Numbered from the stretch's first letter, positions 36,102-62,432 are shown. The stretch: DNA of 64,000 nucleotides from Saccostrea cucullata (GCF_032062105.1 NW_026927343.1:186001-250000); one strand, 5' to 3'. Notes: generated by a model not told the origin, from the sequence alone. Numbers and translations: made by a program.

Positions 36102-38936
36102 TCAATCCATTGGTATCCACCCCAGATAGATAAAACTACTGACGTCATTATTAAAGTCTTTTGCAAACCTCAAACCCGGGGCAAATACGGGTTTATAATA
36201 CAGAGTTGTTTCCCCTGTCAACCACGCCACCCATCATCCGAAGGTCCCCACGGATATAATCGTGTGGTTTATTAAGGACAACAGCGCCATATCCTCCATT
36301 CCAGAATTACCCAATGATATGTGCACATTTGTTTTGTTCTTAAACGCGTCCTTGGTCCACATGAGGTCATTCGACGCCACGATGAATAAAACGTTTGGAT
36401 ACAAATTTTCAAAGTAATCCATTGCGTTTTCATAATAGCTAGCATTAGGAGTTATTTGACCGTAGTCATTCACAGGTTTAGAGGTGTAGTCCCCACGTCT
36501 TACTTGCACTCCCACTAGCGTGAAATATTTGGAACAACAAGTAAACCCTGATGTTCCTATGATGTCTGCTAGCTGCTTCCTGGCTCTCTCTGTTATTTTA
36601 TCTTGGAATTTAAATGTCTGACGAAGACCGTTTTCATGCTGGATCCAGTATTTCCAGGACTGGAAATACCCATTAAATTTAGCACCCTGAAATATTGGCA
36701 CATTTATAAGTTGGTCATCGAATGAACAAGCCCATTTCTCGGAATAGATCGGGGTGTTATCACAAGCACCGCTTTCTTCACCCATTTGTTTCAACGTCGT
36801 TTTATTAATTTTGAAAACATCGCCGAGCTCAAAGTTTTCGGAGATTAAAGGATACAATCCTTTAGATTTAGAAACACTGTATAGAAAAGCGTACTGAAAC
36901 ATCAGGTTCCCTAGTTTTCCACGGAAACCTATACAAGCTTTCGGCAAACGTTGATGTGGTATTCTATTTATGGAAAGTAATTTGGAAATGATCACCAAAG
37001 CAGCAATCGAAGGCATCCTCTTTCTGCAAAAAGAAGTAAAGAGTAGTAAAAATTCAATGCACTGAATCTCCTATTTATTTGAGTAAGATTAGGTTATCGC
37101 TGCATGCTCTTGATCTGTTACAAAGATGTGTCAAACATTCTTGAAATAAATAAATACCGATCAAAATAAAGTTTGATATACGATGTATGACCCTGATATT
37201 TTCCGGTGGTATCTCGTTTCATTGTTCCATTTTTTGTTCAAAATTGAAAGCAAATAAAGCATCGAGAACAAAATTATCAAACTATGAAACTGGAATTGAT
37301 ATCAAGTATAATGAATAGCTAGAAAAAAAGTTTAAAGTCACAACAAAGTCTTTTGTAAATGTGTAAGTTATGTCGAAACGCATATATTATAACTGTGTTT
37401 GTTGTCACTCTATAGATAAGAAAATTATCCAAAAGCAGTCAGGCTATAAAGAGTCAAAAATGTTTTTTTTTTTTTTTTTACCCTTTGCATGCAGTGTTGC
37501 AATAGCAAGATCAGGGAGGAAAAAAAGAGAATTTGTATATTTTACATCAGACCTTGGTGATCAATTTGTACACAGAGATTCCTGTGACCTCTGTTGACCT
37601 TATTTAATTTAGATGACTCTTCCTTCAATGGAACTTGAGGGGAGTGGTTGATCATTATATTGGAATTATCTACAGCAAAAATGACTGCTAAATCTTCATT
37701 TTAAACATATTTTGCTTTTTCGGTATTTTCTAAATGTAAACTAAAGCGGGGAAAAAGATCAGTGACGGTTTTTTATTAACAAAAGCCTCATACATTAAGT
37801 AAACGAATCAAATGTAATCAAAATGGCAATGTTTTAGCATTGAATTTGTTTCCTACAAACACTACATTCGGATACTGTAAAACGAGAAAATTTGGCGCAT
37901 ACAAATTTTAGCGCAAACGCAAGTGGGAATGCATTAGCGCAAATATATTTTAGCGCTTGCACTTGTCAGTAAAATATATAAATTTGATATTTTGTTTTGT
38001 TTTGTTTTTATCCACACCCGTATTTGACCTTTTGGTTAGTCAAGCACGGAAACACATTAGTACTCCCGTACATCAGTAAATATTCGTTAACTTTACCACG
38101 GTACGTGTTGCTATCACATGGACGTGGCACAATGTTAATTATTAATTTTATTTCTATTTTCTATTAAAAGAAATGGAGTATTTACTCATTTAAAATCATA
38201 TAAAAACAATACATGCATCGACAGAAAATTACTTCGATAAAACGGTAATCCTAATTAGATATTGTCTGCAAGCTCAATCGCCATGCTTGATTGCATTCTT
38301 TACCTCGAGGCTATTGATGATTGACACGCCGAGAAGCCAAACTTTGAAGGTCCTAATGATAATAATCATGTAACAACTACCGGGGTAACAATAGTTTTAT
38401 TAATTAAATTATAATTTGGCAGAACTTTCTGTCTTCCGAACATGTGCAGAACTAGTGTGTATAAAAATTCCAATGTCCCTTCGACATTACGAAAGCGCGC
38501 GTTCCGGTTTACATGTACTTATGTAAAAGCTTTGAACACACACAAAAAAAATGATATTTAGAAATCCTTTAGCGCACAATAAATTTTAGCGCTCAGGGGC
38601 TCTTGTGCCAAAGGCGCTAAAATTAGTAGTGCGCCAAATATTCTCGTTTTACAGTATATCAAACACTAAATTTACTGTACTCACCACTCAGGCGAGCTGC
38701 AATATATTGACTTCATCTTAATTATTATAATTAACATGAAGTTGATATATACCTTTAACTGTTAAGGTATTCGAAATTAATATATAGCTTACTTTTACTA
38801 TTCGACTTAATTGCTTAAAATTATGCTGTATTGTCTAGAGGAGATAATTTTTTGACGCTGAGAGTATATCAACAAATTGAGTTCTATTCCTCTACGTACT
38901 CAGGAGATATTTTGATAATTTCCGCAAAAGCCTCAT
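36102..38936 (-). pseudogene. Alpha-1,2-fucosyltransferase (GT11, FUT1/2-like) pseudogene; exons 38900-38936 and 36102-37023
   Basis: Close paralogue of 51199-53560. It carries TGG>TGA at 36234-36236 (the frame continues to the ancestral stop at 36102), HVRRGDY>QVRRGDY, and an exon-2 start 1 nt shorter, which puts exon 1 out of frame. Confidence 0.85.
37875..38654. mobile_element. Tc1/mariner-type MITE, TA TSD, specific to duplication copy 1
   Basis: ta|ctgtaaaacgagaaaatttggcgca ... tgcgccaaatattctcgttttacag|ta. The empty site is at ~53270 in copy 2. Confidence 0.9.
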
Positions 38937-39432
38937 TATTCATTTCCTGTCCAAAACACCTGATTCCCATTGAAGAACATTACACCAAAATTTTGTCAGA
39001 TGATATTGTAGTAAGTGAATATCTGTGCAGTCTTGAATTCAATACATTTTTATCTGGACACAAAGGAACTGATATAACTCCTTATATTCAGGTAAATCAC
39101 CCACTAATCGGGGTTTCTGTATCAGAGGAGTTTGTGAAGCAAAAGTAATGACTCTGTTTTCCTTTTGGTGTAAATATAAATAACAACCAACCAACATGGA
39201 AAATGATGACAAAGGAAATAAAAATATAGATTTCATGGTACAAAACACTGAAGTATGATGTCAAAAAAACCAGCATCTTGTAGCGTAAAGATAAGAATTG
39301 TTTTTTAAACCTTGGTTTGATTTTGTTAAATGATTTTTATAAAATTCAATTGATGTACAATGTAGGAAGTTTCTAATTGTTGCAATTAAGGTTTAGAAAG
39401 TTATAATCTTTGTGAGGTATAGGTATTTTAAC

Positions 39433-40320
39433 TTTTTATGCCGACGTACACGACTTTTCGGGGGTATATAGTTTTTGCCGCGTCCGTCCGTCTGTCTAGC
39501 TCTCTACATCTGTTTTTCCGCAAAAACTTTAACGTTGCCCATAACATTTGATGTAGTGGAGCTATGACGTTCATATTTTACATGTTTATTCCTTGCGACA
39601 ATACCTTTCTTTGGGTACCACCAAATTTGTTTTGACCTTGGTGTTAGACCCACTTAACATAAAAATTCCAAAGAAATTTACTTTGGCTATATCTTTTGAA
39701 CAGTAGATACCAGGACTTTTATACTTATTGTATATATTCTTTGTGCTAAGACCTTTCTTTGGATACCAATTACTTTGACCTTTTGACCCTGATCTTTTAG
39801 ATGTCCGTACTAATGAAAGTTATTTAACCTTTGCCATAACTTTTGAACAGTAAGGGCTGGTGCTTTTATACTTCACATATGAAATCCTTGTTAAAAATCC
39901 CTTTATTGGATACCATAAACTTTGACCTTTTGGCCTTGGAGTATGACCTTGAAAATAACTTTTAAAGAGTTAGGACTACCGCTTCCATGCTTTACATATT
40001 TAATCCTTGTAACAAAACCTTTCATTTGATATCAAGAATTCTTTGACCTTGGAGTTAAACCAACCTTTTAAAATGTTTAACCTTGACCATAACTTTTAGA
40101 GGGTTAGTGCTAAGGCTACCATACTCCACAAAAGTAATGCTTGTGGTAAAAGCTTCATTGGATATCAAGTACCTTGACCTTGAAAATTTTCGTACTTTAA
40201 CCTTGGCCTATTTCATGTTTCACAATTGTATTTAGGTATACCAATATATTGAATTTGCATTAAGAAAAGTTTGATCTTCGCTATGTTGCCATACGGGACA
40301 TCAGTGTTTCACAAACAAAT
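39433..40320 (-). mobile_element. Old pearl/HINE-like element
   Basis: Decayed hairpin, GTCC microsatellite, degenerate tgaccttg-containing monomers, and the end gtgtttcacaaacaaattatt. Confidence 0.75.
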
Positions 40321-40769
40321 TATTCAACTTTCGTCAAAATTAAAACATAAAAAAATAAATAAAAATTGAAATAAAAATCACAAGTAAAAGAGAAATGTAA
40401 GAAAAGTCTCGTAATTGATTGAATATTTATGATTCACCATTTACATGGCTACTTTAATCATAACTGTTGCATCGAGAAGAGAGAGAGCAATAAATTTTAT
40501 CCACTATTTGATTAATTCTTCGATGATTCTAAATAAACAGATATGGACTGATTGGGACACAGCAAAAATTCGAATTATGATTTTTTTAAAGAGGTTCCAA
40601 TACGCAGGAATAGTCCTATAAAGTTCAAGTAGTGCACATATGTGTCCGTCAGTCTGTTTTTCAAAAAAACTTTAATCATGTCCATAAAACTTTTGATTGG
40701 TTGGAGCTATGGCATTCATACTTCACATATATATTTGTGTCGAGAGCTTTCTTTTGTACCAAAATATTT

Positions 40770-40801
40770 GATTGATTGATTGTTTATTGTTTATCGTCCC
40801 T

Positions 40802-40835
<34 letters not shown>

Positions 40836-40921
40836 GTATGCCGTTGAAAGGCTTCAAATTTTGATCTTTACTCGGCACTCAAGGCCATTGAGAAGTGAGG
40901 GATCTTTATCGTGCCAACACC
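40770..40921 (-). mobile_element. SINE 3' half (split by the Gypsy insertion)
   Basis: (ATTG)n tail and the reverse complement of the 20370-20520 SINE body, up to gtgccaacacc. Confidence 0.88.
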
Positions 40922-43900
40922 TGTTATGTTTTCTGAATGCAAAGATCCAGTGAAATGACGACAAGACAACGAGCACGCTTTTTGACTCTCTATTCTGTAG
41001 AACGGAAATCACAAAAGTGGCGCCTTGCGCATACTCAAACATAGTGTATGTAAAATCAAACAATCAAAGGGAAATAACTCTTATCACACAATTAGCAAGA
41101 TAATTTAACATTTCCCGTTTTAACAAAAAAATCAAAGTCACTTGATTCATGTACAATCATCATACTACATTTAACACTGTCAAATTGAAAATCATAAGTG
41201 TCCATATCTGTATATAAATTCTGATTCACAATGAACATATAAACCATGTTTAATGGACATACATATGCAAATAATGTAGACTGATATGATGATTTAAGTA
41301 ACAATTGATTGACAATTTGATTACATAGAAGGAATGATTTTTTGTTTTACAACTCTTCCAGACCTAGTTACATATGGCTTTGATTGCTCTGGGGGCTTAG
41401 GTGAGTTACCTTTGTCAGGATTTTCTCCATGTTGCACATCATTACCAGAATTCATATTAGGGGTATCATCTGGCAAAGGCTCATGTTTGAAAACATCATA
41501 CTGGGGAAGAGCAAGCTCTTCTGGCTGGGGAGCATCATTTGTTTTATGGAGAAATCTCATGTTGCGCCTATACAAAGAACCAGCAGGTGTCTTGACCAAA
41601 TATGACCTATTCCCATGTGGTTGCATTATAATGGCTGGGGTCCATTTTTTATCATTCAGCTGAACCCTTACTGAATCACCCGAGTTGAGAGGCTTCAGAG
41701 GTCGAGCTGATCTATCATAGTAGACCTTTGACTTGTCATGAATGACTTGTAACTTTACCCTTATCTTGTCTGTGTCATGATGAAAGGGCTAAAGGCTTTC
41801 CTGAACAGTAGGGATGTTTGACACCTAAGTCTTCTGGACATCAACAGTTGTGATGGGGAAAGTCCCATGTCCAAGGGAGTAGTCCTATATGTCAGAAGGG
41901 CCAAATTAATGTCTTGTCGGTCAGCCTTACACTTAGTAAGAATGTCCTTTATGGTTTGTACTGTCCTTTCAGCAAGACCATTAGATCTAGGGTATCTTGG
42001 GCTTGAAGTGACATGCTGAAAATTCCACTCTTTGGAAAAATCAGCAAATTCATAACTTGAATATTGTGGACCATTGTCCGAGACAAACTTTTCAGGTATA
42101 CCATACCTTGCAAAGACTTCTTTGCATTTTGAGATCTGAAGACTTCAAAATACCTACTATAGTAGTCAACAAACAGAACATAGTCCTTGTCATCCCATAG
42201 GGAGAGATCTGAGGCAATTGTCTGCCATGGGTATGAAGGAATTTCATGAGATTGCAAAGGTTCCTTAGAGTTGGAATTCCTAAATTCTAAACAAACATTA
42301 CAGTTCAGTATTAGGTCTGTAATGTCCTTCGTAAGTCCTGGCCAGAAAACTATGTCACGCGCTCGTCTCAGGAAGTTTTTCAACACCAATGTGACCCACA
42401 TGTAAAATTTTCAAGAGCTCTGTCCTGAGGTCATGGGGAATAACTATTCTAAGACCCTTCATAATGATCACATTCTCTACTGACAATTCATCTCGGAAGT
42501 TCCAGTATTCCTTAATGGGGTCTGGGCAATCTCTGCGCAAGTCTGGACAACCTTGCAAAATAAATTTGGTTAAGGTTTGAAACTTAGGGTCTGATTCTGT
42601 AGACAACCTAATCTGTTCTAGATGACGGTCACTGACCTGTATGTTTTTATGAACCAAATGTACCTGGGCCTCAGTGAATGCCCTTGGAGAGCTCTGGCAT
42701 TGTGTGAGGTAAGTACTACCTAGAAAGTGTATCTGCTACAGGAATCTGTTTTCCTGGAACATGAACAAGCTTAAGGTTGTATCTCTGCAGTTGCAGAATC
42801 ATGCGCTGTAAGCGGGCAGGGACAGTAAGTATAGACTTCTGCATAATAGACACTAATGGCTTGTGGTCTGTTTGGACGCACACCTCACGCCCATAAACAT
42901 AATGATGAAAATGCTTACACCCAAACAGAATAGCTAGCATTTCCTTTTCAATTTGTGCGTAGTTAATTTCTGATGGGGTAAGAAATTTAGAGGCATAAGA
43001 CACAGGCTTGCCTTCTTGTAAGAGAGTAGCCAAATTTGGAGGCATCAACTTGCAATACAGTATCTTTGCAAGGATCAAAATAGGCCAATACTGGGCCTGG
43101 TGACCTTGTGATTATGTCCTTGACCTTAGCAAAAGACTCTTCTTGGGCTGGGCCCGAAACAAATTCAGACCTTTTTGACAACAATTGTCGCATGGGGCTA
43201 GTAGTATCAGCCAGCCAAGTTTGGTGCAAATTTGGATAGGTAGTTTACCATACCCAGTACCGTCTCGAGTTCGTTACGATTTTCCGATGGTTTCATGTCT
43301 TTGACAGCTGAGACCTTGTTAGGGTCTGGCTTGACGCCATCTGCAGAAAGTAAGTGACCAAAGTACTCGACTTGTGTCTGACCTACTTCAAGCTTCTCAT
43401 CATTGAGCTTAATGCCCATTTCTCTTGTGCGCTGAAGAGCGGCTTTAAAATTGCTATCGTTCTCAGCACGGGTCTTCCCATACACAAGAATGTCGTCGAA
43501 TATAGCAACAACACCTTTGAGACCTGCATAACAGTAGTCAATCTTGCGCTGAAATTCATCCTGTGCAGATTTCAGGCCAAAGGGCAATCTGAGGAAACGA
43601 TACCCACCATAGGGGGTATTGAAAGTGGTAAGATAGCTCGAATCGTCGTCAAGCTTAATAGTCCAATAACCTGAGCGCGCATCAAGCTTGGTGAAATAAC
43701 GTGCACCGGATAACTCAGGTAAAATGTCATTGAGAGTTTTCAAGGGGTAATGGGGTCGATGAATGACCTTGTTTAGATCCCAGGGGTCAAAGCAGATTCG
43801 TAAAGCTCCAGACGGCTTCTCGACAACAACCATGGAGTTTACCCAACGTGTGGGGGTGTCGACCTTAGCAATGACCTGTAACTTCTCCATCCGGTCTAAC

Positions 43901-45631: not shown

Positions 45632-45832
45632 ACACGGGGCTTCGGTTTTTAAGGTTTCATCCGAAGGACCCGCAACTTTCACTTCAAAGTGCCGAGCACA
45701 TGGCGAAGGAACAGTTGCTATCCATTTTCATACATTTATATCGACTTAGGTCAGTCGCGGCAGAGATACGAACTCACGACCTCCCGATCACGGATCCCGG
45801 AGCGAGCGCTCTACCGACTGAGCTACCGTGAA
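45632..45832 (-). mobile_element. SINE 5' half with tRNA-derived head
   Basis: The reverse complement has ggtagctcagtcggtagagc (A box), gagttcgtatc (B box) and the core ggtccttcggatgaaacc. Confidence 0.88.
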
Positions 45833-45871
45833 CAGTTCAAAATGTTTGACCTCTTGGCCTTGATCTTGGAA

Positions 45872-46268
45872 TGAACAATTTCTAAAAAGAGGTAAATTAT
45901 TGACAAACAGGTTGATGAAACAAGAATATCAACAGTCTCGTTTAGAGTCATTATTTCGTAAGTTCTATGGTCGATACAATGACCTTGTCAGCAAATACAA
46001 TTTATCATTGAGTCAAATGCTGACTGGCGCCTTTCATACCAATTGTTAGTCCATTATTTATACACTGAATTGATAACGGATTTTTTCCGTTATTTCCTGA
46101 TCATGACAAGGAGCACACGGCTGGTGTGACCGGTCGACAGGGGATGCTCACTCCTCCATGGCACGTGATCCCACCTCTGATGTTTCGGAGGTCTTTGTTT
46201 GCTATGTTCTTATTTTGTATTGTTTTATGGACTTTGAGATTGAACACTGTTCGTTATATTCATATCCT
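45872..46268 (+). mobile_element. Penelope-like retroelement 3' fragment
   Basis: Encodes LTNRLMKQEYQQSRLESLFRKFYGRYNDLVSKY (RT thumb-like), followed by a tail that also occurs at ~34945, ~35655, ~44045, ~47025, ~49590, ~50755 and ~57063. Confidence 0.7.
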
Positions 46269-46905: not shown

Positions 46906-49644
46906 ATAACCATTACTCCATTAGGTCCATGGGTTTATACCACCTTCTTACAGCGAATAATCACCGGTACAGATTATAATATTCCTCCTACCACCACAAT
47001 GAATATAACATCATGGTAATGAAACATATGAAGATTTAAAACAGTATTCAAGATCAAAAGTCCATAAACAATACAAAATACGTAATCATACGTGCAATTT
47101 CAACAACATGTGACGATGTTATTTAGTCTTTCAAAAAACTTGTCATAACATGTTTTCAATCTTTATTCATGAATTTCTAAAAGTTCTATAAAACTCTACT
47201 GTAATACTAAACTATCACACACTTCCTACATTTCTAAAGATGAAGACTGAAAGGGTATTGATTTAAGCAGAATTCTCAAGACAGGAAAATGTTCAACCTT
47301 TTATCTCTACGCTGAATGTAAAACTCACAATTCGTCATTGATACTGTGGGACAGGAGGTTGAAAGATGTCAAAATTGATAAATATAACACAGATGCTGGC
47401 ACATCAAAGTAAAAGTAAAATACACCAATTGACTATCTGACAAATGTCAACACTCATCCACTTGTTATATTTTCTGCATCAACTTATATGTCAATAGCGT
47501 GCACACATACTAGCATACTTAAAGGTAGGAAAGGCTCTTACATATCAAATCAACATTCGACATCAGCACAATATACAGGTTATTAGATGCATTTCCACAT
47601 AAATCATTTGACAACGGAAACTAATAAATTACAATTTGCTTTAAGTTTAGTTGTTAGTTTGCAATTTACGTCTTCAACGTGTCTTTAAAAACTTCCCCAT
47701 ATAAATCAAATAAATCAGCGCCTCTTGAGATTCCTCTACTTTAGTGAAAATGAAGGTTTTTATTTCAATTTATGTAACGACTTTTTTTATGTAGAAGTTT
47801 TAAATAAATTCTGCTTCATAAGAGTACCCAAAAACTTAATAATTATCTTTATTTCATTGCAATGACACTGATGGTTTTTTTCTGCCATATTAGAGATAAC
47901 ATAAAATTTGAAGTAAAAGATTTAAAAGACTTATCGAAACGTTGTTCCTACTGCCTAAAATTGGTGCTTAAACTCTGGTCAAAATTGTCTTCAAATATCA
48001 ATTGCATGTAAGCACCTCGCTGAGTTTTTTGGTTGGTATGTTGTAAATGGATCTTTTATAAATCCTTAACAAGATAAACATGTCCGAAATTGATTTTAGT
48101 TAATGCATGTATGATACTATTTGATCCGTTATCTAAGAAGTACAACATGTATTTGAGTGATTAAATCGTATCGTTACCTTAAACATGTTGAACACATGGG
48201 CATTGATGACATAATCAACAGTCTGTAAACTGTGCATTTTTGTATATTTGGATCACCTTGATTCTACACACAAGTAATATCGGACTGATAACTAAAAGAA
48301 TTTGGATTTTTTTTCATTGACAATATCTTTCTTGTATTTGGATTACAGGGTCTTCTAATAAACAGTTGAATTTTCAATAGGCCTTAATTTTGCTCTTTGA
48401 TCATCAGACATGTTTTAATATTCCTTTTATCGGTACTTTTTTTCAAATACCTTATACTTTAAGAAAATATAAAACAGTGGCCTTCACATTAAGATTTTGA
48501 TAATGGACGACGTTTTATCAATTAACAGTTGATGGATACATTACTTTTAGTGTCGACTCAAACAGGCCTCTAAATGACCTCTAGAAAATAGGCGAAAGAT
48601 GCCACCTTATTAAAAAATGTAGACGGCGATGCTTAGTCAACAGGCAGTTTTTAGTAAGGTGCCAACTTTAAAGTTTGATGGTGATTTTAAAGAACTGCAA
48701 AGAACGGGTTGTCATTTTTTTGGAGATATAATATTGATAAATAATACTTGATTGTGAATCTTTATTTTTCATTGTAATTTTATTGATTATCATGTTCATG
48801 TATTATTACCTACTATTCTATCTTGACCATTTATACAAGGAGAAGGTGTACATAGGCATTGCTTGTTGCCCAATCCTGATTGAATTTCTCAATAAAATAT
48901 GTTTAAACTATAAAGAACTGTATTCGGTAATAACCGATATTTGCCCCCCAAACCAAACTTTGAAGGAGAAATATTTAATTATGGGGCACAGTTGGTCACA
49001 ATTAAGATAAAAAATACATGTATGCACAAGTTTGAAATTTTTTTTTTCTAAATGTGGACGTATACATGTAGCAGAAATAAAAAAAATATCTGCATCATAC
49101 AAATATTGTAATAATCAAGAAGCTGTCTCTCAAGATAATGATATTTGAGTCCCCCGTATAGGTCTGGAATGGAGACCCCACGGTAGAGCCAAGATGTCAT
49201 ACACGGTACATTTAATTTTTACATATGATTGTGTCTTGTAAAATTCTTTCTATTTCTTGAAATATTGCAAACGCATGGTGGCATCAAAATATTTGCCCTT
49301 TAATAACCTAATTAAAATATTAACCTCATTGAAATATGTGTCCCCAGAACAGAGCTAGTAAAACGAGCTTAATTTTAATTGTACAGAACTTCCAACAAAC
49401 CCGTAATGTTTACTTTCCGTTTGAAACAGAAAGTCTTTATCGGGAGGATATATTGATGAATTATTTCGCTTTGAATATTTCTTAATTGCTTGAAATTTCT
49501 AAGACATAGGACATGCACTTACTGTCAAGCTAAAGGATATCAATGATGTAGTCATGCATTTATCAGTACTGTACGTACTAATCACATGGCACCTGATCAC
49601 ACCTCTGATGTTTTGGAGGTCTTTGTTACTCTGCTCCTTTTTGT

Positions 49645-50124
49645 TATACAATTATAGCCTTTTGATGAGGTCAATCCCTCGATATATAGACCTTAGAGAA
49701 GCATATCGACCGAGCACGAAGTGCGAGGTCGATATGCTTTCTCTAAGGTCTATATATCTAGGGATTGTACCGAATCAAAAGGCTACAATTGTTTTATTAT
49801 TTTTTATCAGTTAATAGGAAATGTCTTAAAATCCTTCTTTATAATACTCAGTACCTTCTCATACAAGGCATTGTTATGTCATTGCATTATGACGTCACAG
49901 TAATGAAAACCATCTGCAGTATCTGTTTTTAGAAACATCCAGTCTATAAAGACTATTGTGACGTCAGCACTATTGTGGCTTCACAGAGAACGTTTCTAAT
50001 TTTAGAAACAGCAAGTCTATAAATTTTTAAAATAGAAACATCCAGTCTGTAACACTTTTTATACTGGATCATGTGATCCAGTTTGAGCCAATCTGATAAT
50101 TGGAACAATAAAGAAAAATAATAA
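49645..50124. mobile_element. Copy-2-specific insertion beginning with a ~145-bp hairpin (possibly Crypton-like; superfamily uncertain)
   Basis: acaattatagccttttgat...gcatatcgacc[gagcacgaagtgcga]ggtcgatatgc...atcaaaaggctacaattgt, with two TGACGTCA motifs in the body. Absent at the paralogous site ~35003. Confidence 0.8.
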
Positions 50125-51198
50125 TTTGTATTATTGACTTTGATCTGGAATACTGTTGGTTATCTCCATATATGTTTCATGCATCGAAATCCCACAATAT
50201 CTTTACTGCGGGCTATGATCAGATAAATTTGTATGTAGAGTGTTTAGTAGATTTGCATGGAAGTGCAGATATATATTTAAGTTTACTTTTAATATGTAAT
50301 ACAATTACAGTATAAGGATGGTACTGTGCACAGTATTCTTTATCAGTAGATTGTTTAATTTTGTTGTCGATAACATTAAGTGTTAGCTTTTTGATTCAAA
50401 TACGTGTTTATTATTCACTCAATGACATGTTATCGTAGGATAGGGACCTTGATAAGATATAATAAAACTGTATTTGTTTGCACTCGCACTTTCTGTTTAC
50501 ATAATAATAACATAAGTTCAAACATTAGATGTCTCGTTTTTACGATATAGACGATACTGCGTGTATTCATTTGACACTAGAGCATCTCATATGAACATAT
50601 ATAGTTATGCTGTGTGCATTTTGGAATGAATTCATAAAATCATCCTCTTTGATTTTTTTTCGGTAGTGTTTGGTAATCTAAATAGTACTGCTTTTATTTG
50701 CTTGTCCCTCCCCTTGTGTACATTCTAACCCTTTTTGCATACTATATTAAATGAAACATATGGAGATAACGAACTGTATTCAAGATCAAAAGTCCATAAA
50801 ACAATACAATATAGGAGCAGAACAAACACGGACCTCCAAAACATCAAAAATGGGATTAGATGCCGTAAAGGAGTACGCATCCCTTTTTTGCACAAATTCT
50901 GCTTCATATGAATACAAAAATATGTCCACTAATAACGGAGCGCAATTCGTATCCATGGGAATTCCAATAGATTGTTGGAAGACCTGGCCTCATAACAATT
51001 GATTCAGCAGTTTTCTTTTCTTGTTTTACAAACAGTTTTTATGAAAACACAACTTTAGGGGGGGGGGATGAAATAATAAATTTATTTGCAAAAATTGCAC
51101 GCTGTCTAGAGTAGCTTAAAAATACATGTCGAACATACAAAATTATATATTATGCAATTTTAATAACATGTACATTTGTCGCTAAAGTTTCACGAAGT

Positions 51199-53560
51199 TC
51201 ACTCCATTGGTATCCATCCCGGATAGATAAAACTACTGACGTCATTATTAAAGTCTTTTGCGAACCTTGAACCCGGGGCAAATACGGGTTTATAATACAG
51301 GGTTGTCCCCCCTGTCAACCACGCCACCCACCATCCGAAGGTCCCCACGGACATAATCGTGTGGTTTGTTAAGGACAATAGCGCCATATCCTCCGGTCCA
51401 GAATTACCTAATGATATGTGCACATTTGTTTTGTTCTTAAAGGCGTCCTTGGTCCATTTGAGGTCATCCGACGCAACTATGAATAAAACGCTTGGATACA
51501 AATTTTCAAAGTAATCCAATGAGTTTTCATAATAGCTAGCATTAGGAGTTATTTGACCGTAGTCATTCACAGGTTTAGAGGTGTAGTCCCCACGTCTTAC
51601 ATGCACTCCCACTAGCGTGGAATTTTTGGAACAACAAGTAAACCCGGATGTTCCTATGATATCTGCTAGCTGCTTCCTGGCTCTCTCTGTTATTCTGTCT
51701 TGGAATTTAAATGTCTGACGAAGACCGTTTTCACGCTGGATCCAGTATTTCCAGGACTGCAAATATCCATTAAATTTAGCACTCTGAAATATTGGCACAT
51801 TTATAAGTTGTTCATCGAATGAACAAGCCCATTTCTCAGAAAAGGTTGGAATGCTATCACAAGCTTTGTTTTCTTCACCAATTTGTTTCAAAGTCGTTTT
51901 ATTAATTTTGAAAACATTGCCGAGTTCAAAGTTTTCGGGGATTACAGGATACAGTCCTTTAGATTTAGAAATACTGTATAGAAAGGCATACTGAAACATC
52001 AGGTTTCCGAGTCTTCCACGGAATCCTATACAAGCTTTCGGCAAACCTTGATGTGGTATTCTATTTATGGACAGTAATTTGGAAATGACCACCAAAGCAG
52101 CTAGCGTAAACAATCCTATTTCTGCAATAAGAAGTAATGCGTAATAAAAATTAAATGCACTAAATCTCCTATTTATCTGAATGAATAAGATTAGGTTATC
52201 GCTGCTCTTGATCTCTCGTGCAGATTTGACTGAATGTCAAACATTCTTGAGATAAATAAATACAGATCAAAACTAGAAGTACTGTGAGCAATGAGCTCAC
52301 TTTATAGTAACCCCCCCCCCGCCTCCCATATAAATATAATGACAATATAATGACAGTATCCATGTTTTGCTCTGGAAAATCCAAAATATATGTCAGATCA
52401 AAAAATAAAATAAGAGGTGCACAATGGCAATATGTATCAAAGATTCTGTGAACGTTTCGTTAAATTTCATTCAGTGGTATGAGAGAAGTTGCGGATAGGA
52501 GATGGGTACTCTAAAGCATAACAGACGGACGGATGGACATACTGATTACTATATACCCTCCCACTTCTCAAGCGGGGGTATAATAAAGTTAGATTGACAA
52601 TCTATGACCCTGAAATTTTTTCGGTGTTATTTTGTTTCATTGTTCCATTTTCTTCAAAATTGAAAGCAAATAAAACATTGAGAACAAAATTATTAGACTA
52701 TGAAATTAGAACTGATATCAAGCATAATGAATAGCTAGAAAAAAAGTTTAAAGTCACAACAAAGTCTTTTGTAAATGTGTAAGTTATGTCGAAACGCATT
52801 AATGATAAGTGTGTTTGTTATCACTCTATAGGTAAGAAAATTATCCAAAAACAGTCAGACTATAAAAAGTCGAAATGTTTTTTTTACCCATTTCAATAGC
52901 AAGATAAGGGTAAAAAAAAGAAAATGTGTATATTTTACATCAGACTTTGGTGATCAATTTGTATACAGAGATTCTTGCGACTTCTGTTGACCTCATTTAA
53001 TTTAAATGACTCTTCCTTTTATGGAACTCAAGGGGAGTGGTTAATCATTATATTGGAATTATCTACAGCAAAAATGACTGCTAAATGTTCACTTTAAACA
53101 TATTTTGCTTTCGCGGTAATTCCTTAATATAAATTTAAGCGAGGGAAAAGTTCAATGACGGTTTACATAATTTACAAAAGCCTTTATCTTAAGTACACGA
53201 GATATTTGTAATCCAAATGGAAAAAATTATATCTTTGAGTTTTTTCTCACTGCAAACAATAGATTCTGATGTACATCAAACACTATTTCTATTGTACGAA
53301 ACACTCAGGCGAGCTAAAATGTATTGACGTCATCTTAATTATTATAATTAACATAAGTCAATACCGGTAATTACACGTACCTCAAACTTTAAAGGTATTC
53401 GAAAGAAAATCTACTTATTATATATTCGACTAAATTGCTTACAATAAAATTGTCTTGTATTATCTAGAGAGAAGATGATTTGTGGACACAGAGAGTATAT
53501 TATAACAAATTGAATTCTATTCTTCTACTTACTTAGGAGATATTTTGATAATTTCCGCAT
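51199..53560 (-). CDS. Galactoside alpha-1,2-fucosyltransferase (CAZy GT11, FUT1/FUT2-like), intact; exons 53533-53560 and 51199-52121
   Basis: GT11 motifs GRLGNLMFQYA, GYLQSWKY, VGVHVRRGDY, FIVASDD and DMALLS...GTFGWW. A phase-1 join of exon 1 (CTAA|gtaagt) to the acceptor at 52122 gives MRKLSKYLLKIGLFTLAALVVISKLLSI, a type II Golgi anchor. Orthology to FUT1 versus FUT2 cannot be assigned. Confidence 0.92.
52270..52582 (+). mobile_element. Short HINE-like element in the fucosyltransferase intron, specific to copy 2
   Basis: actagaag... start, GGAC microsatellite, hairpin tataccctcccacttctcaagcgggggtata. The empty site tcaaaataaag is at ~37161. Confidence 0.8.
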
Positions 53561-55519
53561 TATTCATTTCCCATCCACAACACGTGGTTCCCATTGAAGA
53601 ACATTACACCCAAATTCTGTCAGATGATATTGCAGTAAGTTGATATCTGTGCAGTCTTAACTTCAATAAATTTTTATCTCGACACAAAGGGACTGATAAA
53701 CGCCTCATACAGGTAAATCACTCAGCGATCTGGTCAGGGATACAGTATCAGAGGAGTTTGTGAGGCAAAAGTAATGGTTCTGTTTTCCTTTCTATATGTG
53801 AAATTATAACTGAAGGAAATACCAACTAAATGGAAAATTTACACAAAGGAAATAAAAACACAAACGTCATGGTACAAACATTCCGAAGTATATGTCAATA
53901 AAGCCAGCATTATGTTGTTATGTAGATAAGAATTTTTACTTAAACAAGGATCTGATTTTGTATTTTTTTATTTTGATATTTTATCAAATTTTATCAAATG
54001 AAATCGATGTACAATGTAGGATTTTTCTAATTGTTGGAATTATGCGATGCATAAGTATTTTAGCTATTTAAGATCCCTCTGATAAAAACTTTAACAGGTC
54101 GAGGAAACTATTTTCTGTGACGTCAGAATAAAATAACATGTTAAGTGAGGAACCAACGTGACTGACAAATCGACCAATCAGCTCAATGAGTTGCATTATG
54201 GTCTACTACAAAAATACTACACATGTTTTTCTAAAAGGCCAATTTTTAAAATCGCTCCCGGAAAAACGTGATGCATTTTTCCAAGCATTTTACACACTTA
54301 ATACAATATGAACATCATTATCTACTGATTCCATGCTCACATTTATATACAAATGATTTACAATGATAAAAATTAGGGTTAAATCTCCACTCCATTGTAC
54401 AAGTCCGTTTGTTGACAGCTTTCCCCGTGCTGTATAGATGTACGGTCAGTGAAAAGTCAATTTCATGTGACTATTCCTTGGTCCAAAAACAATCAACTCT
54501 GAGGTGTGCTCACGTATTGTTAATGTTTGCTACGTACACAACTTCGAAATATATGCTACTCATGTTCTATGATCAATGGGCATGAGGGTTTATATGACAG
54601 GTAAATAATTTTTTTCAAAAATGCAACTTCAGAATCCCTTTTTTTTTTTTTTTTATAAAATGCAACTTTTAATTTTTGGTAACAAATAACTGAGCAACAA
54701 CTACTTAAATTTAACCAGTAACATGGCAAATTATCGAACATCGAGTTAAAAAATTAAGTCTTATTTACTAGTGAAGACTTTGTGAGCGGTATTTCAAAGT
54801 ACTATTTAACAAGGAAAAGTTACTTTATTTGTTAATGTGAGCATGGGGAATCTTAATTAGTACCCAATCTTCGTATTTTTCATGATAAATTTCAAGAAGA
54901 TCGTTAGCTGACTTCCCTGCAGTCGTTTGAAATCGCGTCCTAAAATTCCCTGACCCACGTGTTTGTAGTAAAAATAAACATGTAGTAGACCATCATGCTT
55001 TTCGGCTCATTCACTGGATTGGACCATTGCTTGCTGTGAGCACCTTTGTGCGCAATCGCAACAATATCCATATAAGGTAGTTTCCACGACCTGTTTAATA
55101 CTAACTGCATATTATAAATCACTGTTTATCCTTTATGAGTATTCTCATAACAATATCTTGTTTTACATTTGTATTTATAAAAGGTTTTAAGAAACCAATA
55201 TCATTTGGTGATGGTATCCAATAATCTTGCATGATCAATGTCAAATCAAGTTTATTAATTAGATTTTCCCTTGTCATTAAAGTTCATAAACCCTCTGCTC
55301 ACTCATATAAAATGTTGCTTTAACCTCAATGATTTTCAAAAAGAAATGTATTTTTTAAGTAAAATGCAAACAATTATAGCATATAGCTTGCGGGGCAAAA
55401 GTGGACAAAAAAGACATTTCAACTTGACAAATCTATAAAGGAATTTCTGTCATTAAGAGTTATCTCTCTTATCAGAGTATCGATGAACCTAAAGAATAAA
55501 ATAAAATACTGTATGTGTG

Positions 55520-56381
55520 GATTTGAATTCGTTATAACGAAATCAACAAATTTGTTATAACAGATTAAATTCTTTTAAACGAATTCAAAGAAATTGTCAT
55601 AACGAATTTAAAAATATATTAAAAATATTTTTCGATAGGTCTTAAATGGGCTTCCGTACTTGAACATTTATTTCCTTTTAAAAAAAATATATAGGGGAAA
55701 TTCTGATTAGTGCGGAAGCCCATTTAGGACCTATCGAAAAATATTATTGAATCCGATATATAACGAATTGTCGAATTTTTTAAAACGAATTTATTTCGTT
55801 ATAACAATTTCTATGATTTTGTTATAACGATTTTAAGCTGTTATAACAAATTTGTTGAATTCATTATAGAAAATTCTTTCATTTGTTACAACGAATTAAA
55901 TTTGTTAACACGAATTAAAAAATTTGTTATAACAAATTAAATTCGTTTAAACAAATTCTTAAGTTTGTTATAACAAATGAAATTCTTTAAAACAAATTCC
56001 AAAGTTTGTTATAACGAATTAAATTCGTTTGATCGAATTCAATTATCAGGGTCTATATAGAAAAATATATATGAATTCGATATTACTATTTGTCGAATTC
56101 GTTTTACCGAATTTAATTCGTTATAACAAATTATGGAATTCATTTAATTGAAGTTAATTCGTTATTACAAGTTTTAGAATCTGTTAAAACGAGTTTAATT
56201 CGTATTAACCAATTTTTGAATTCGTTATAACGAAATCAACAAATTTGTTATAACAGATTTAATTCTTTATAACGAATTCAAAGAAATTGTTATAACGAAT
56301 TAAATTCGTAATAACAATTTGGACAATTCGTAATATCGGATTAAAAAATATTTTTTAATGGTTCCTAAATGGTCTTCCGTA
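55520..56381. mobile_element. MITE (55711-56381) with internal short gttataacgaatt repeats, plus an adjacent partial copy ending at ~55658
   Basis: TIR cggaagcccatttag / ctaaatggtcttccg. The internal arrays of ~22-bp units switch orientation around the centre. Confidence 0.8.
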
Positions 56382-57062
56382 TTCAAGTTATATCTACGCT
56401 TGAATTTTTTTTTCGTAAATGCTGGAGTAGCTATTTTATGAAAAAAATTAAGCATGTTAAGATTGCAGTTTGTTGAAAATCATCTTTATTTGATATAATT
56501 TATAACGTATGTACTTAGATATTTATTTCACTTACTTCAGATTATTTCTTAAAGTCTTTGACTGTTAATTTAACAATTTATAAAAAGACATTAATCTGAA
56601 TAATTTTAAGAAGCAGAAACTAAACGAGATATTTCCATGTTCATTAAAATGTATACAAATACAAATACAAATATTTTATTAGTAATTGGTAAAGGCCCAT
56701 AGAAAACATAGTGATAAGTATGAAAATACAGTAGAACACAACTAGGATACAAACAATTGGTGTAGCAAATTATGTATTGTACTTATCAGATACTAAATAC
56801 ATACATGATTCAGTACAATGTAGTTACTCATTTATGACTTAAGTATTTTTTCTTATATCAGATATTTGACATAAAAATGATGATAATATTTTAAGAACCT
56901 TTTTACAACTAATATTCATCAATACTTTTAACAATTTTTGATTATTATCAATTGTTTAAATTATACATGTAGCTCCTACTAGATTTCATTAAATATGACC
57001 ACCATTTTAAAAAAAAAACAATTGTAGAATTATGAGGAACAGAGTATGATTTTTAAAGGAAA

Positions 57063-57720
57063 AATATGGAAATAACGAACTGTATTCAAGATCAAAAGTC
57101 CATTAAACAATGCAAAATAAGAACAGAGCAAACAAGGACCTCCATATCATCAAAAGTTGCTTTAAAATTGTTCATACATAAAACATGCTCTTGCGTATCG
57201 ATTCGATCACTTAAGATGTATAAACTCCGTACACAGGTGATGAAGGTACATTGCTGCATAAGTAAGGGAAGTTGACAATAGAAAAGTTAAAATCATCAAC
57301 AATTATCATAAAGCTTAATTAGATGTTTGATTACTATTAAAGTCTTTTTCAAGTAAAATATCCAAATATAAAACAGATGTGTCAGAGTCTGTGGTATCTT
57401 TTATCTCAAGCTCACCATGATATATCGTATCGACCTAAGAACGGAAATCATTTTTTGTCGACAATACGTCGTCGATATACAAAAATATTGAGTTGAAGGC
57501 CATATCAAGTATTTTCTTCTTTTCATATGAATATAAAAAAAAGTGGGCTAATATGACGCGCAATTGGTACCCATATGCATGGGATTTCCAATAGATTGCT
57601 GGAAGATCTTGTCTCCAAAAACCACATAGATATTGTCAATCAGAAACTCAAGCATCTGTGTGATGTCAACTTCAAAGTACGTATGTGTTCAATCAGAATG
57701 TTTATAACAAAATAGTTTTG
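57063..57720 (-). mobile_element. Decayed Penelope-like reverse transcriptase remnant
   Basis: Minus-strand fragments include YIDDVLS and a disrupted GIPMGTNCA-like motif, next to the same tail as the 45872 fragment. Confidence 0.7.
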
Positions 57721-59469
57721 CAAATGACTAATGACAAGGTAAATAAATTAATGAGTTCCAGTTTTATGGAAAAAACAGCAGTGAATGATATCAAATAAAT
57801 CCTAAACTGGTTATGTATAAGGTTGGAAAGTCGTACGGTTTAAGCTGTAGGTTTTGGCAAAAATCTTTTGATTTCATCTTGTCCAAATGTTCCTTGGACT
57901 TTTTAAGTACTAGTATCAGAATCTGATTTACACTTCTTAAATATATTGTTGCACAGTACTCTTGACGTTTATGCTTCACAACTGTTAATATCTAAGTGAG
58001 GAGTACAGAATAAGGCTTTGTTGAGCATTTACTGGAAAGCGCTTTGTATCTTTGTAAGATTTTTTATAAAGTTTCGGAATCCAATATAAATATGGTAGTC
58101 CAAGTTTATTTTGGTTCCTTGAGATCATAAAAATATTCAAAACTGACATATTATTTTGAAAAATTTCTTCCTTAGAAACAGAACTATGAGTATAAAGTGA
58201 ATTATAACTTGTAGAATTAAATCCAATTGCAAGTTCTTTTAAAATACAATTTATATAATTAGCCTTACATACAAAGCCAATGTTGTTATCTGCTTTGTCA
58301 GCAGAGACCAGTGCTGTACCTACAGATCATGTAATCTATCTAATTCTTTTTTCACTTCTGGATTGTTGGATAAGGAGGATTGACGGTTTTCATTCAGCCC
58401 CTGAATGTTTCAATACGCGATTGTAACATAGATCTGATACATTTAATTCATTCTGACAAAATGTCAACATGCATCTCTTTTTCCTACATGTATCTAGACC
58501 ATCGATCGCCTAGCGTAATCTTCTACAGAATCCATAATATTTATGAAATTCTGACGCCAGTTGAAGGATAGTTGTTCCCCATAGTTAGGTTTATTTATTA
58601 TTGATCTAATGTCCTTATTATGAACTATATTGATGTCACCTGTGATAACGTATCCAGCAGGATGATAATCATCAGGTGAAGAAGAACAAGAACACGACGG
58701 AGTATTATGTTTTAGATATGGACCATCTCTGCACTGGCCCTAAATTTCAGGATACTTTTGTATATTTTGATAGAACAATCATTTGATATAAAAACTTTAA
58801 AAATGTCATTCAGCACTGTATAACAGAAGGGGGAAATAAGTTTAATAATCTATGCCATAGAACACAGGAGAAATGATCAGTTTAAAAACCCACATTTAAT
58901 ATTAAAAGTAAATAGTCTTTGTACGGACACAAAGAATACCACAGTTAAATAAGCACATCATTCATAATATAATAATAGTGATAAAATTTACATAATGTAT
59001 AAATATGTATTTAACATACATAAGTTAACTAGCTATAAAAAATGGTGACATTAATGAGCAATAATACAAACAAACAGTTCTTAATTTTCTCTCAGACAAA
59101 CTGGGATTCTACAATATTTAATAATATTTAATATAGTAGCAGACAATACATTCTGTTTTAGATTGAAAAGCAAAAAAGGGGTATTTTTTTTCTAAAAATA
59201 AACACATACATAGTGACATAGTTAAATACTGAATTAACACTGCATAATTATAATGTTAACTAAGCATGTCATACTTTAGAAAACAAAGAAAATAAACTTT
59301 GATACGTTGCATGGTCTTACACATTTTCTTCACAAATGCACGTATAGTGATACCATGAGTTATTTTACATTCAATTTCACAGGAAAAAAAAAACTTCTCT
59401 CAAAAATGTATGTTTACTTCATTACCACAGCTATTAGTACTTTTTCATGTGTTTCAGATATTTACAAAA

Positions 59470-59539
59470 CTTTCAACCACACACGCCTTATGAATTTTCA
59501 ACCACACGCCTTATGAGTTTTCAACCACACGCCTTATGA
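59470..59539. repeat. 3 x ~23-bp tandem repeat
   Basis: tttcaaccacacgccttatga occurs three times. Confidence 0.9.
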
Positions 59540-60944
59540 GAAAAAGGGTCAAAGCAGAACACAATTTTTTGGACAATGAATATGAGTAAGAAAAGGATGT
59601 TAACTGTTTTCATCATTGTTCAGGAGATAGAAAGACTGATGCGATTGTCCAGCTAATGTCTCAGTTGAGTACCTGAGGTCCTTCCATTAAAATGTACATG
59701 ACATTTACGTTTACCTACAACTGTATATCCATGATTTGTTAATATATATGTTTACAAGTACTTAAAATCATTTTTTTCTCAAAAATTCAATTTTCAATGC
59801 ATGGCACATCATGATAATCCTCAGAACAAATCACATTAAAAAAATTCTTACCCTATGCCATTATAGGGGAGATTCTAAAATATTCTTATGTAAGTCACAT
59901 ATTCTCACATATCACATGAAAATACAAATATTTAATACTTCATATGAACTTTAGAAGTAATATGCATAATAAAAATAATAACATAGAAATATATACATGT
60001 CAGATTATACATAATATAGAAATATTGTGTCAGACAACATGTACAATTTGTTTTTATTTCTTACTGACAAATGATATGTAATTTTAATTCTATTCTCAGA
60101 ATTCTCTTCACACAGTCAAACTGAATTTATTTGAATCAAAATGGAATATTTAGTGACATAGCTTACTTTCTAATGATTGAAAGAAGTAGGAAGAGTCTGT
60201 TAAGCTGTTTAGGGTTAACTACAGTCAACAAAATCTGAGTGTAAACAAATCCAAAATGTTTGATTTCTTTGTGTGAAACTGAATATCATAGTAAAATGTG
60301 TAATGAGAAACATACACCTGGGATACCTGCTTGGCAGTTAATTAATGAAAGCCCTTCGTGGAATGTAATGGGGACTAATTAAGCTTTTTACAGAGAAAGG
60401 AAAATGGATTTCATAACGAAAAGGAGTACATTTGAAACAAATGTATGTAACAAATTCTTATCAAAAACTAGGTCCTGGTTGTAACTGATATTCCAATTCT
60501 GATTAAAGATAAAATGCTAATTTATCAAATTTTATCCAGGACTTAAGTTATAAAACAAAACTGAATTTGTCAATTACACTGACCATCACAAATTGAGCTC
60601 TCTAACTTAACTCGGAAAACAACATTATACCCCAGCAAACAATAACAGAAACTCAGATAATATTTAATTCTATAAAAAAAATTTGGTTTCATTAACAGGT
60701 TTATATTTTTGCCTGTAAACAGATATCTAATTCTATTAAAAAAAAAACATTCGGTTTTTTTTAACAGGTTTATATTTTAGCATGTCATATCTAAAAAGTG
60801 TTTACCTTCAAAATAAATCCATGTACATGTATTTCAAAATGAATATATAATGAGAATCCTTGTGACACACTAAACTTACTTCCCTCTGCGTGAAAGAAAC
60901 AAAAAAGATAAAAATTGATTCCTATTTGTTAAGTTCTAAGTTAA

Positions 60945-62432
60945 TCACTTGGATATGAGTTCCTTCTCCGAGGAGTCCTCACCCTCCTCCATTTTTTCTG
61001 ATATCTGAGCCATGTCCATTTTATGTTTAACCTTCATTTCCTGCCTCCGTACTTCGGTGTACGCCCCGGACCCGAATAACACGACAAAGTTACTGGTCCA
61101 CCAAAGCGTTGATTTGTGATCCTGGTAGTATATACACGCTATCACGGTCTGAGCGCAGGCTTTAGCTGTCCCCGATATGTTGTGGGTGAGAGGAGAGGTC
61201 ACCTGGATCTGTAATCCAGTTATGTATCCGATAGCGAATCCGAACACTCCTCCTATCGTCATGTAGGTCCAGAACGTTGTGTTCCCCAGTTTTGGGAAAT
61301 TCCAGACTTCTCCGATTTCGCCGAACACCAGCATGAGTGGGAGGAAGAGGAAGCAGGCGTTGACGTTGTTGTAGAAGGTCAGTCTCCAGATGTTGTTGTC
61401 CACCACGGGCAGGACTTTCTTTGTGTAAATAGAGTTCAAGGCCACACTGGCGCTCGCCAAGACCCCAAACACCACCCCCATCACAGACAGGGACCCTGAA
61501 ATAACAACGGATAACCACTGATAGGGCTGAAGTATAAATGACACTGAAATAGAAAGCATAATGATTACTAGAGCTCAAGTATAAAAATTTCATGAAGAGA
61601 TATAGGCATATGCCTACTTTTTAGATGTTACACTCTTTTCATGGGTACACTGTTTAACAGATAACATTTGTGAGTCTTTTTTTCAAAATCTTTTTTTTAC
61701 AAAGATACATTCAAAGTCATAAACATTTCATTAGAAATATTTTTAATTTAAACATGCTCATTGCACTGCATACTGAAGAGTTATAATTCTGTGGTATTTT
61801 TGTGCAGATTGAGTGATCTGCCCTTACATTTAGATTGTAAAAATCAAAATCTAATTTGGCTACAATCAATTAAAGCATTCTTAATCTTTCATTACTCCAG
61901 GTAAATTAACTTGACACTTTATTTCTATGTGGTTTCCTCATTTCAATAATCAACAATAATTTATTTTTGCTCTCAATTCTCAATTGTCTTTGTACATTTT
62001 CTCATTTTAAATATCTGCAATATTCATACCTTTTACAAAATTACTTTCTCAAGTGTCCAACAAATATATTTTTGATTGTAATAGAGAGTCCTTAACATTA
62101 CAATCACTGTAAAATCAGTTTCATTGGGACTTCAATTTCATTTATTTTGTTGTTTAAAATTAGCAACAAAATAAAATCCTACACAAAATTTTTATATGGT
62201 GAGATACTGAACATCGTGGTGCTTTCGAAACAACAAAATTTAATGCCTACAGACACTTTTTTTACCTGACAATTCACTGACATTTTATCCCCCTTAAAGT
62301 TTGTACATCTACAGTAGGTTTACCTGCCACTCCTTCTTGATCCACTCCCATGAAAAAGCCTCCAATGATGATCAGACAGCATACAATGGCCTTGACAGAG
62401 GTCGTCTGTTGTAGCATCGTGTAGGAAAACAC
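60945..62432 (-). CDS. SLC35C1: GDP-fucose transporter 1, last two exons (62324-62432 and 60945-61495); 5' exons lie beyond the right edge
   Basis: Spliced phase-1 translation [51 protein letters not shown]...IYTKKVLP...LTFYNNVNA...[21 protein letters not shown] matches SLC35C1 signature segments. Borders are canonical GT-AG. Confidence 0.95.
62105..62316. mobile_element. Degenerate Tc1/mariner-type MITE in an SLC35C1 intron
   Basis: actgtaaa ... tctacagta termini; weak internal inverted similarity. Confidence 0.45.

What the first reader, a model, noticed from the sequence alone, without database searches (positions are those of the whole stretch)
36102..62432. Co-oriented fucosylation cluster: GDP-fucose transporter next to tandem alpha-1,2-fucosyltransferases
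Seen: the SLC35C1 stop (60945) is about 7.4 kb upstream of the ATG (53560) of an intact GT11 gene. No other host gene was recognised between them, and a second GT11 copy follows, all on the minus strand. Established: SLC35C1 imports the GDP-fucose that Golgi GT11 enzymes use to build H-type antigens; human SLC35C1 and FUT1/2 are on different chromosomes; and oyster HBGA-like glycans are implicated in norovirus binding. Inference: this may be a functional donor-supply plus transferase cluster, which is unusual in animals.
Basis: partly seen in the sequence, partly recalled or inferred. Interest (0 to 1): 0.7.

Follow-up and report, generated by a model that had tools for sequence, protein, structure and literature searches.

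The report
Oyster fucose transporter beside a fucosyltransferase
In this oyster the gene for the Golgi GDP-fucose transporter lies 7 kb from one intact fucose-transferring enzyme gene (the second copy is broken), and the Pacific oyster's gene numbering shows the same pair, but unrelated neighbouring genes stayed in place too, so it is likely ordinary inherited gene order rather than a purpose-built sugar-pathway cluster.

Summary
SLC35C1 (stop 60945) lies 7,385 bp upstream of an intact, spliced GT11 gene (GT11-A, ATG 53560), both on the minus strand. A second contig repeats the pair, so this is not a misassembly. The second GT11 copy is a recent tandem pseudogene (frameshift, H183Q, W273*, excess amino-acid changes), so only one enzyme is working. 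The genome is Saccostrea cucullata. In Crassostrea gigas the pair has consecutive gene IDs (CGI_10006833/6834), and in Ostrea edulis both genes share a chromosome. However, a dystroglycan-like gene and a Rab43-like gene flank the pair in both Saccostrea and C. gigas, so a whole block is conserved. GT11-A belongs to an oyster-only GT11 radiation (about 15 neighbourhoods here). In 15 of 16 non-oyster species the GT11 genes seen lie on other scaffolds than SLC35C1. GMDS and FPGT are unlinked. No read-through was seen, though depth was low. GT11-A is not the characterised CgFUT1. Verdict: likely a chance landing in the oyster ancestor, inherited passively. Co-regulation remains untested (about 20%).

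The parts
62324..62432 (-). SLC35C1 (GDP-fucose transporter 1) penultimate coding exon; four more exons lie beyond the window end (window-equivalent 64.7-66.0 kb)
   Evidence: tblastn with the O. edulis orthologue P0318 and AG/GT splice sites
60945..61495 (-). SLC35C1 last coding exon including the TGA stop
   Evidence: 72-76% identical to named molluscan GDP-fucose transporters and 88% to O. edulis; 22 synonymous and 0 replacement differences to C8271
59100..60944 (-). Likely SLC35C1 3' UTR of about 1.8 kb; its end is approximate
   Evidence: low read and contig coverage down to about 59.1 kb; A[AT]TAAA at 59132 and 59122
54100..58740 (.). Intergenic repeats: a MITE-like element near 54.2-55.0 kb, a palindromic 41-bp minisatellite at 55.5-56.35 kb and a decayed non-LTR retroelement fragment near 57.0-58.7 kb. 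About 54.1-56.4 kb has no counterpart on C8271
   Evidence: the element classes are assigned from recalled motifs, not from a library match
53533..53560 (-). GT11-A exon 1 (MRKLSKYLL plus one base)
   Evidence: matches the RefSeq N-terminus; spliced joint 52121/53535 in a contig of run X3; similar N-termini in Ostrea and Crassostrea orthologues
51199..52121 (-). GT11-A exon 2: transmembrane anchor and the whole catalytic domain, intact, with VHVRRGD
   Evidence: PF01531 E=2.6e-39; dN/dS 0.15 against C8271
40922..45631 (-). Decayed Ty3/gypsy-type LTR retrotransposon between the two GT11 copies
   Evidence: RVT_1 hit; LTRs 175 of 190 aligned bases identical; ORFs broken into pieces; the gypsy assignment is recalled from domain order
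38900..38936 (-). GT11-B exon 1 equivalent
   Evidence: sequence comparison
36102..37023 (-). GT11-B exon 2, a pseudogene: 1-nt deletion after the acceptor, H183Q, W273* at 36236-36234
   Evidence: lineage-specific changes 24.5 N / 11.5 S against 13 / 27 for A plus C8271, Fisher p=0.005
32936..39388 (.). Duplicated unit of about 6.5 kb, the copy of 47466-54042 (76-90% identical)
   Evidence: self-BLAST

Best explanation
[quoted passage not shown] The block reads dystroglycan-like, FUT, SLC35C1, membrane protein, Rab43-like. The two genes are likely transcribed separately. The transporter would feed the common Golgi GDP-fucose pool for all fucosyltransferases, and GT11-A would add alpha-1,2-fucose to terminal galactose like other family members. 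GT11-B is a younger tandem duplicate that has decayed (birth-and-death evolution). Shown: gene structures, adjacency on two contigs, lesions in B, splicing of A. Inferred: timing, chance origin, enzymatic activity, separate regulation.
For: C. gigas IDs run 6832 dystroglycan-like, 6833 FUT2-like (963 nt), 6834 GDP-fucose transporter, 6835 membrane protein, 6837 Rab43. Here a DAG1-like ORF lies about 38 kb left of the window and Rab exons about 45-47 kb right of it, so unrelated genes are conserved too. GT11-A forms an 8-row oyster clade (SH-aLRT 100) inside a 30-row clade whose named rows are all oysters (99). The published supplement calls the orthogroup an 'Ancestral Ostreidae expansion'. 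In 15 of 16 non-oyster species with both genes seen they lie on different scaffolds. GMDS-like exons are on C12276 and FPGT on C19212, contigs with no GT10 or GT11 match. Read depth falls to 0-0.2 at 53372-54089 in 3 of 3 raw-read runs, and no SLC35C1-to-GT11 joint is among the 15 of 81 joints listed. Oysters keep chromosome-level synteny (PMC9679249 passages).
Against: The prior chance of this specific pair being adjacent is only about 1e-3. The pair has lasted since the Saccostrea-Crassostrea split, about 77 Ma (PMC6289776 passage). In Saccostrea both outer flanks hold extra genes (ROCO-HEPN and TRIM-NHL on the left, a KH-domain ORF on the right) while the SLC35C1-FUT interval holds none; this is one comparison and the C. 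gigas table was truncated. The expression data are too thin to exclude co-regulation (1-4x depth, apparently unstranded libraries). GT11 lists for non-oyster species are incomplete.
Confidence: 0.72

Rival explanations
1. The adjacency began by chance but is now kept by selection: GT11-A uses regulatory elements in or near SLC35C1, so donor import and H-type fucosylation rise together in mucus or gut cells.
For: Specific-pair chance is about 1e-3. The pair is kept in Saccostrea (two contigs, dS 0.18-0.21, both genes under purifying selection) and in C. gigas. No gene lies between them. The tandem copy placed 15 kb farther away decayed.
Against: The whole block is conserved. The interval is mostly repeats and differs by 2.5 kb between the two contigs. 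In C. gigas family RF23 the transporter was differentially expressed (mean log2FC 0.30), while CGI_10006833 was found only in the annotation file, in 1 of 6 files searched. Broken tandem copies also occur in GT11 clusters far from SLC35C1 (C18957, C15270).
Confidence: 0.2
2. The two genes are joined in a read-through or bicistronic transcript from the SLC35C1 promoter.
For: Same strand, a gap of 4.9-7.4 kb, and similar low read depth over both coding regions.
Against: Near-zero depth directly upstream of GT11-A exon 1, and no linking joint among those listed. Polyadenylation-type signals lie at 59.1 kb. The duplicated unit takes only about 0.5 kb upstream of exon 1.
Confidence: 0.04
3. The arrangement, or the second GT11 copy, is an artefact of a haplotig-rich assembly.
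For: The assembly is 1.17 Gb in 23,869 contigs with many near-identical GT11 pairs and triples. A, B and the C8271 copy are about equally distant (dS 0.16-0.18).
Against: The adjacency is on two contigs and in C. gigas gene order. B has three lesions and a significant excess of replacement changes, which an allele of a working gene would not be expected to show.
Confidence: 0.04

Closest known systems
GT11 alpha-1,2-fucosyltransferases (human FUT1/FUT2/Sec1; oyster CgFUT1 and CgFUT2)
   Same: PF01531 domain, short cytoplasmic tail with one N-terminal hydrophobic stretch, VHVRRGD motif (named as conserved in PMC11522050). A catalytic domain in one exon and a tandem pseudogene neighbour also resemble the FUT2-Sec1 arrangement (recalled).
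   Different: GT11-A is not CgFUT1: that gene's RACE primer encodes SYSWWAG, which matches other paralogues (C21750/C7856, C18957b), whereas GT11-A reads GTFGWWVAW. CgFUT2 is 350 aa with another N-terminus. No activity data were found for this orthogroup.
SLC35C1 / FUCT1 Golgi GDP-fucose transporter (mouse Slc35c1, Drosophila Gfr)
   Same: About 350 aa; last exon 72-76% identical to named molluscan and 62-70% to vertebrate GDP-fucose transporters; one locus on two contigs. The role is taken from PMC12295658 passages.
   Different: It has a GT11 neighbour, seen only in oysters among the species checked.
Orthogroup OG0001225, 'Ancestral Ostreidae expansion only' (PMC9679249 supplement)
   Same: It contains C. 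virginica XP_022297432.1 and XP_022301114.1, which are members of the GT11-A orthologue cluster.
   Different: The row seen says nothing about the gene neighbourhood.
Pathway gene clusters (bacterial GDP-fucose/O-antigen operons; plant and fungal biosynthetic clusters; recalled)
   Same: A donor-handling gene sits beside a transferase on the same strand.
   Different: Only one supply gene and one working transferase are present. GMDS and FPGT are elsewhere. No co-transcription or co-regulation was shown.

Membership tests
GT11 alpha-1,2-fucosyltransferase (GT11-A) | PF01531 domain above the curated cut-off | tested here: met
   135.7 bits against a cut-off of 23.9
GT11 alpha-1,2-fucosyltransferase (GT11-A) | HxRRGD donor-binding motif and type II membrane anchor | tested here: met
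   VHVRRGD present; best 19-residue hydropathy 2.14 from residue 8
GT11 alpha-1,2-fucosyltransferase (GT11-A) | Transfers fucose alpha-1,2 to terminal galactose | not testable with these tools
   inferred from family; no PDB sequence relative at E<=0.001
Functional GT11 enzyme (GT11-B) | Intact reading frame and motif | tested here: not met
   1-nt deletion, H183Q, W273*
SLC35C1 GDP-fucose transporter | Best named homologues are GDP-fucose transporter 1; complete exon set with canonical splice sites | tested here: met
   the last exon alone scores 24.9 bits on PF03151, below its cut-off of 30
Pathway gene cluster | Three or more non-homologous genes of one pathway linked | tested here: not met
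   two gene types only; GMDS-like on C12276 and FPGT on C19212; GFUS and FCSK were not located
Pathway gene cluster | Linkage conserved beyond background microsynteny | tested here: inconclusive
   conserved in C. gigas but together with unrelated flanking genes; not seen outside oysters, on incomplete lists
Pathway gene cluster | Co-transcription or co-regulation | tested here: inconclusive
   no read-through at low depth; not jointly listed as differentially expressed in one data set

The most novel reading that the evidence does not exclude
Oysters evolved a selected, co-regulated two-gene fucosylation module: an oyster-specific alpha-1,2-fucosyltransferase was placed under the regulatory reach of the only SLC35C1 gene and kept there for at least 77 million years, coupling Golgi GDP-fucose import to H-type glycan synthesis. 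This uncharacterised orthogroup could then be a main source of oyster H-like epitopes.
Probability: 0.17. Interest if true: 0.6.

Novelty: new member of a known kind. Interest (0 to 1): 0.27.

Why it matters
As it stands this is a small comparative-genomics note. Its practical value is that it picks out a conserved, apparently single-copy oyster GT11 orthogroup (C. gigas CGI_10006833) that is neither of the two characterised oyster enzymes, so it is an untested candidate for making H-type glycans. If co-regulation with SLC35C1 were shown, it would be a rare example of pathway-driven gene linkage in an animal and a pointer for work on why oysters retain norovirus.

Tried and rejected
RefSeq accession distance as an adjacency test was rejected. 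In Mytilus trossulus the two genes are 163 accessions apart on different chromosomes, so the 2,400 gap in O. edulis says nothing. Full-length SLC35C1 records for S. echinata, C. virginica and C. gigas were not found in two homologue searches and two cluster look-ups, so only O. edulis gave a scaffold. A metagenome scan gave 3 distant loci (28-34% identity) and no oyster context. The 50%-cluster search carried no names and was not used. PDB searches found nothing. The idea that GT11-A is the CgFUT1 orthologue (both about 318 aa) was rejected by mass, pI and primer peptide. Supplements of PMC9431538, PMC6182001, PMC9892467 and PMC12064177 had no transporter row; that of PMC6289776 was unreadable. 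The tree is the quick IQ-TREE run, not the finished careful search, and uses 83 rows: 39 of the 40 S. cucullata copies (C277 left out, frameshifted) and 44 chosen database proteins. Three look-ups of earlier findings returned nothing.

Full report
Source. The window is G000:C9480:186001-250000 in a 1.17-Gb assembly of 23,869 contigs. The intact GT11 protein is 100% identical to RefSeq XP_062612387.1 of Saccostrea cucullata, on a contig of the same length, 298,772 bp.

Observation. SLC35C1 has two coding exons in the window (62432-62324 and 61495-60945) and four more just beyond it, found with the Ostrea edulis orthologue and bounded by AG/GT sites. Its stop lies 7,385 bp from the ATG of GT11-A. 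GT11-A has a 28-nt first exon and a second exon carrying the anchor and catalytic domain (PF01531, E=2.6e-39). A contig of run X3 shows the splice. The interval holds the transporter's 3' UTR and repeats, with no ORF above 113 aa. Contig C8271 carries the same two genes 4,908 bp apart. There the transporter exon has 22 synonymous and no replacement differences, and GT11 has dN/dS 0.15. The adjacency is therefore real and both genes are under purifying selection. Whether C8271 is a divergent allele or a segmental duplicate is open, since dS is 0.13-0.21 across three genes.

The second copy is broken. A unit of about 6.5 kb (47466-54042) is duplicated at 32936-39388, with a decayed LTR element between the copies. 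GT11-B has a 1-nt deletion just after its acceptor, which puts exon 2 out of frame with exon 1 (read). It also has H183Q in the VHVRRGD motif and W273* at 36236-36234. Its own branch carries 24.5 replacement and 11.5 synonymous changes, against 13 and 27 for A and the C8271 copy together (Fisher p=0.005). In the tree it falls inside S. cucullata, after the split from S. echinata. I did not check its stop against reads.

Family size and chance. The genome has at least 42 GT11 and 78 GT10 profile matches (lower bounds, haplotigs included). The 40 gene-like GT11 copies fetched collapse to 26-32 genes in 15 neighbourhoods. The chance that one neighbourhood is adjacent to SLC35C1 is about 1e-3 by gene order, or 2-4e-4 within 7.4 kb. 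With 6 supply genes and 60 fucosyltransferase neighbourhoods (my assumed numbers) it is 2-3%. GT11 abundance alone does not explain the pair. A scan that notices any same-pathway neighbours will still meet such cases regularly (inference).

Conservation. In the C. gigas annotation table of PMC6971885 (supplement 6, rows seen, file truncated) the IDs run CGI_10006832 dystroglycan-like, 6833 FUT2-like (963 nt), 6834 GDP-fucose transporter 1-like (1,053 nt), 6835 membrane protein and 6837 Rab43. That these IDs follow scaffold order is recalled. That 6833 is the GT11-A orthologue is inferred from its position and from its length, which equals the 320-aa forms P0142/P0148. In O. edulis both genes lie on the 88,744,346-bp sequence. 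In S. cucullata a DAG1-like ORF lies about 38 kb left of the window, and a membrane-protein exon and Rab43-like exons lie to the right (the Rab43 label rests on recalled motifs and on the C. gigas order). The conserved unit is thus a block of at least four to five genes, most of them unrelated to fucose. Saccostrea and Crassostrea split about 77 Ma (PMC6289776 passage), and oyster chromosomes are largely syntenic (PMC9679249 passages).

Outside oysters. Both genes were seen with scaffold lengths in 10 other bivalves, 3 gastropods, 2 annelids and 1 nemertean. Only Tubulanus has a GT11 on the transporter's scaffold (1 of 16), and that GT11 belongs to a distant clade. These GT11 lists are incomplete, so this is absence among the nearest relatives found, not proof. 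The tree places GT11-A in an oyster orthogroup (support 100) within a 30-row radiation whose named rows are all oysters (99), spread over several chromosomes (quick tree). The PMC9679249 supplement row already labels this orthogroup an ancestral Ostreidae expansion. The simplest history is that a new GT11 copy arrived next to SLC35C1 in the oyster ancestor (inference).

Tests of a functional cluster. GMDS-like exons are on C12276 and FPGT on C19212, and neither contig has a GT10 or GT11 match. GFUS and FCSK were not located. In three raw RNA-seq runs of one study both coding regions had about 1-4x depth per mate direction. Depth was 0-0.2 at 53372-54089, and none of the 15 listed joints (of 81) links the two genes; high-depth bins are repeats. 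Power is low. In PMC6971885 the transporter is differentially expressed in one family (mean log2FC 0.30) and the dystroglycan-like gene in another, while CGI_10006833 appears only in the annotation file. This is weak evidence against tight co-regulation. By established biochemistry SLC35C1 supplies the shared Golgi pool (PMC12295658 passages), so proximity to one of dozens of transferases gives no metabolic advantage unless expression is coupled.

Relation to known oyster enzymes. CgFUT1 (PMC10217650; parts 1-3 of 5 and passages read) is a different paralogue by primer peptide, mass and pI. CgFUT2 (PMC11522050; parts 1-2 of 6 read) is 350 aa with another N-terminus. The norovirus connection for GT11-A is therefore by family only.

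Print status. Five searches found no paper describing this linkage: oyster + fucosyltransferase + norovirus + GDP-fucose transporter, Crassostrea + GDP-fucose transporter, SLC35C1 + fucosyltransferase + synteny (0 papers), oyster + GDP-fucose + transporter + candidate genes, and nucleotide sugar transporter + gene cluster + metazoan. I saw only their listings. Subscription journals, bioRxiv supplements and the unreadable S. glomerata supplement could bear on this.

Verdict. This is a real, oyster-conserved adjacency of two ordinary genes plus a young pseudogene. Passive microsynteny after a chance landing is the best reading (0.72). Selected co-regulation remains possible (0.2) and can be tested with public expression atlases.

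Noticed in passing
window 1-3157 (-): Two long overlapping ORFs with DUF6570 and Herpes_teg_N domains and a 51-bp coding tandem repeat; this looks like the 5' part of a Helitron-type element (recalled).
   Followed up: no
window 12670-13593 (-): 308-aa open exon with an NHL repeat, probably the last exon of a TRIM-NHL gene of the expanded bivalve family.
   Followed up: no
window 29636-31687 (+): Decayed non-LTR retroelement reverse-transcriptase fragments (class recalled).
   Followed up: no
L009:5303-7581 and L008:9222-9890 (-): Roc-COR gene with a DZIP3-like HEPN domain, left of the window; no such name is among the C. gigas block IDs seen.
   Followed up: no
L001:6360-7541 (-) and C8271:16294-17475: Intronless 394-aa ORF with a weak KH match about 4 kb upstream of SLC35C1, kept on both contigs with dN 0.018 and dS 0.13.
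   Followed up: partly
C9480 versus C8271: The two contigs differ by dS 0.13-0.21 over three genes, far more than most duplicate GT11 contig pairs (97-99.9% identical). Some GT11 loci occur on three or four contigs. This could reflect deep allelic divergence, a hybrid or segmental duplicates.
   Followed up: partly
G000:C21707:259271-259723 and C19867:6317-6769: A divergent SLC35C1-like paralogue, 37% identical, in a 331-aa open frame. It may correspond to the weakly expressed C. gigas CGI_10019078.
   Followed up: no
G000:C15312:72922-73788: An intronless 350-aa match to the GDP-mannose dehydratase family, besides the multi-exon GMDS-like gene on C12276.
   Followed up: no
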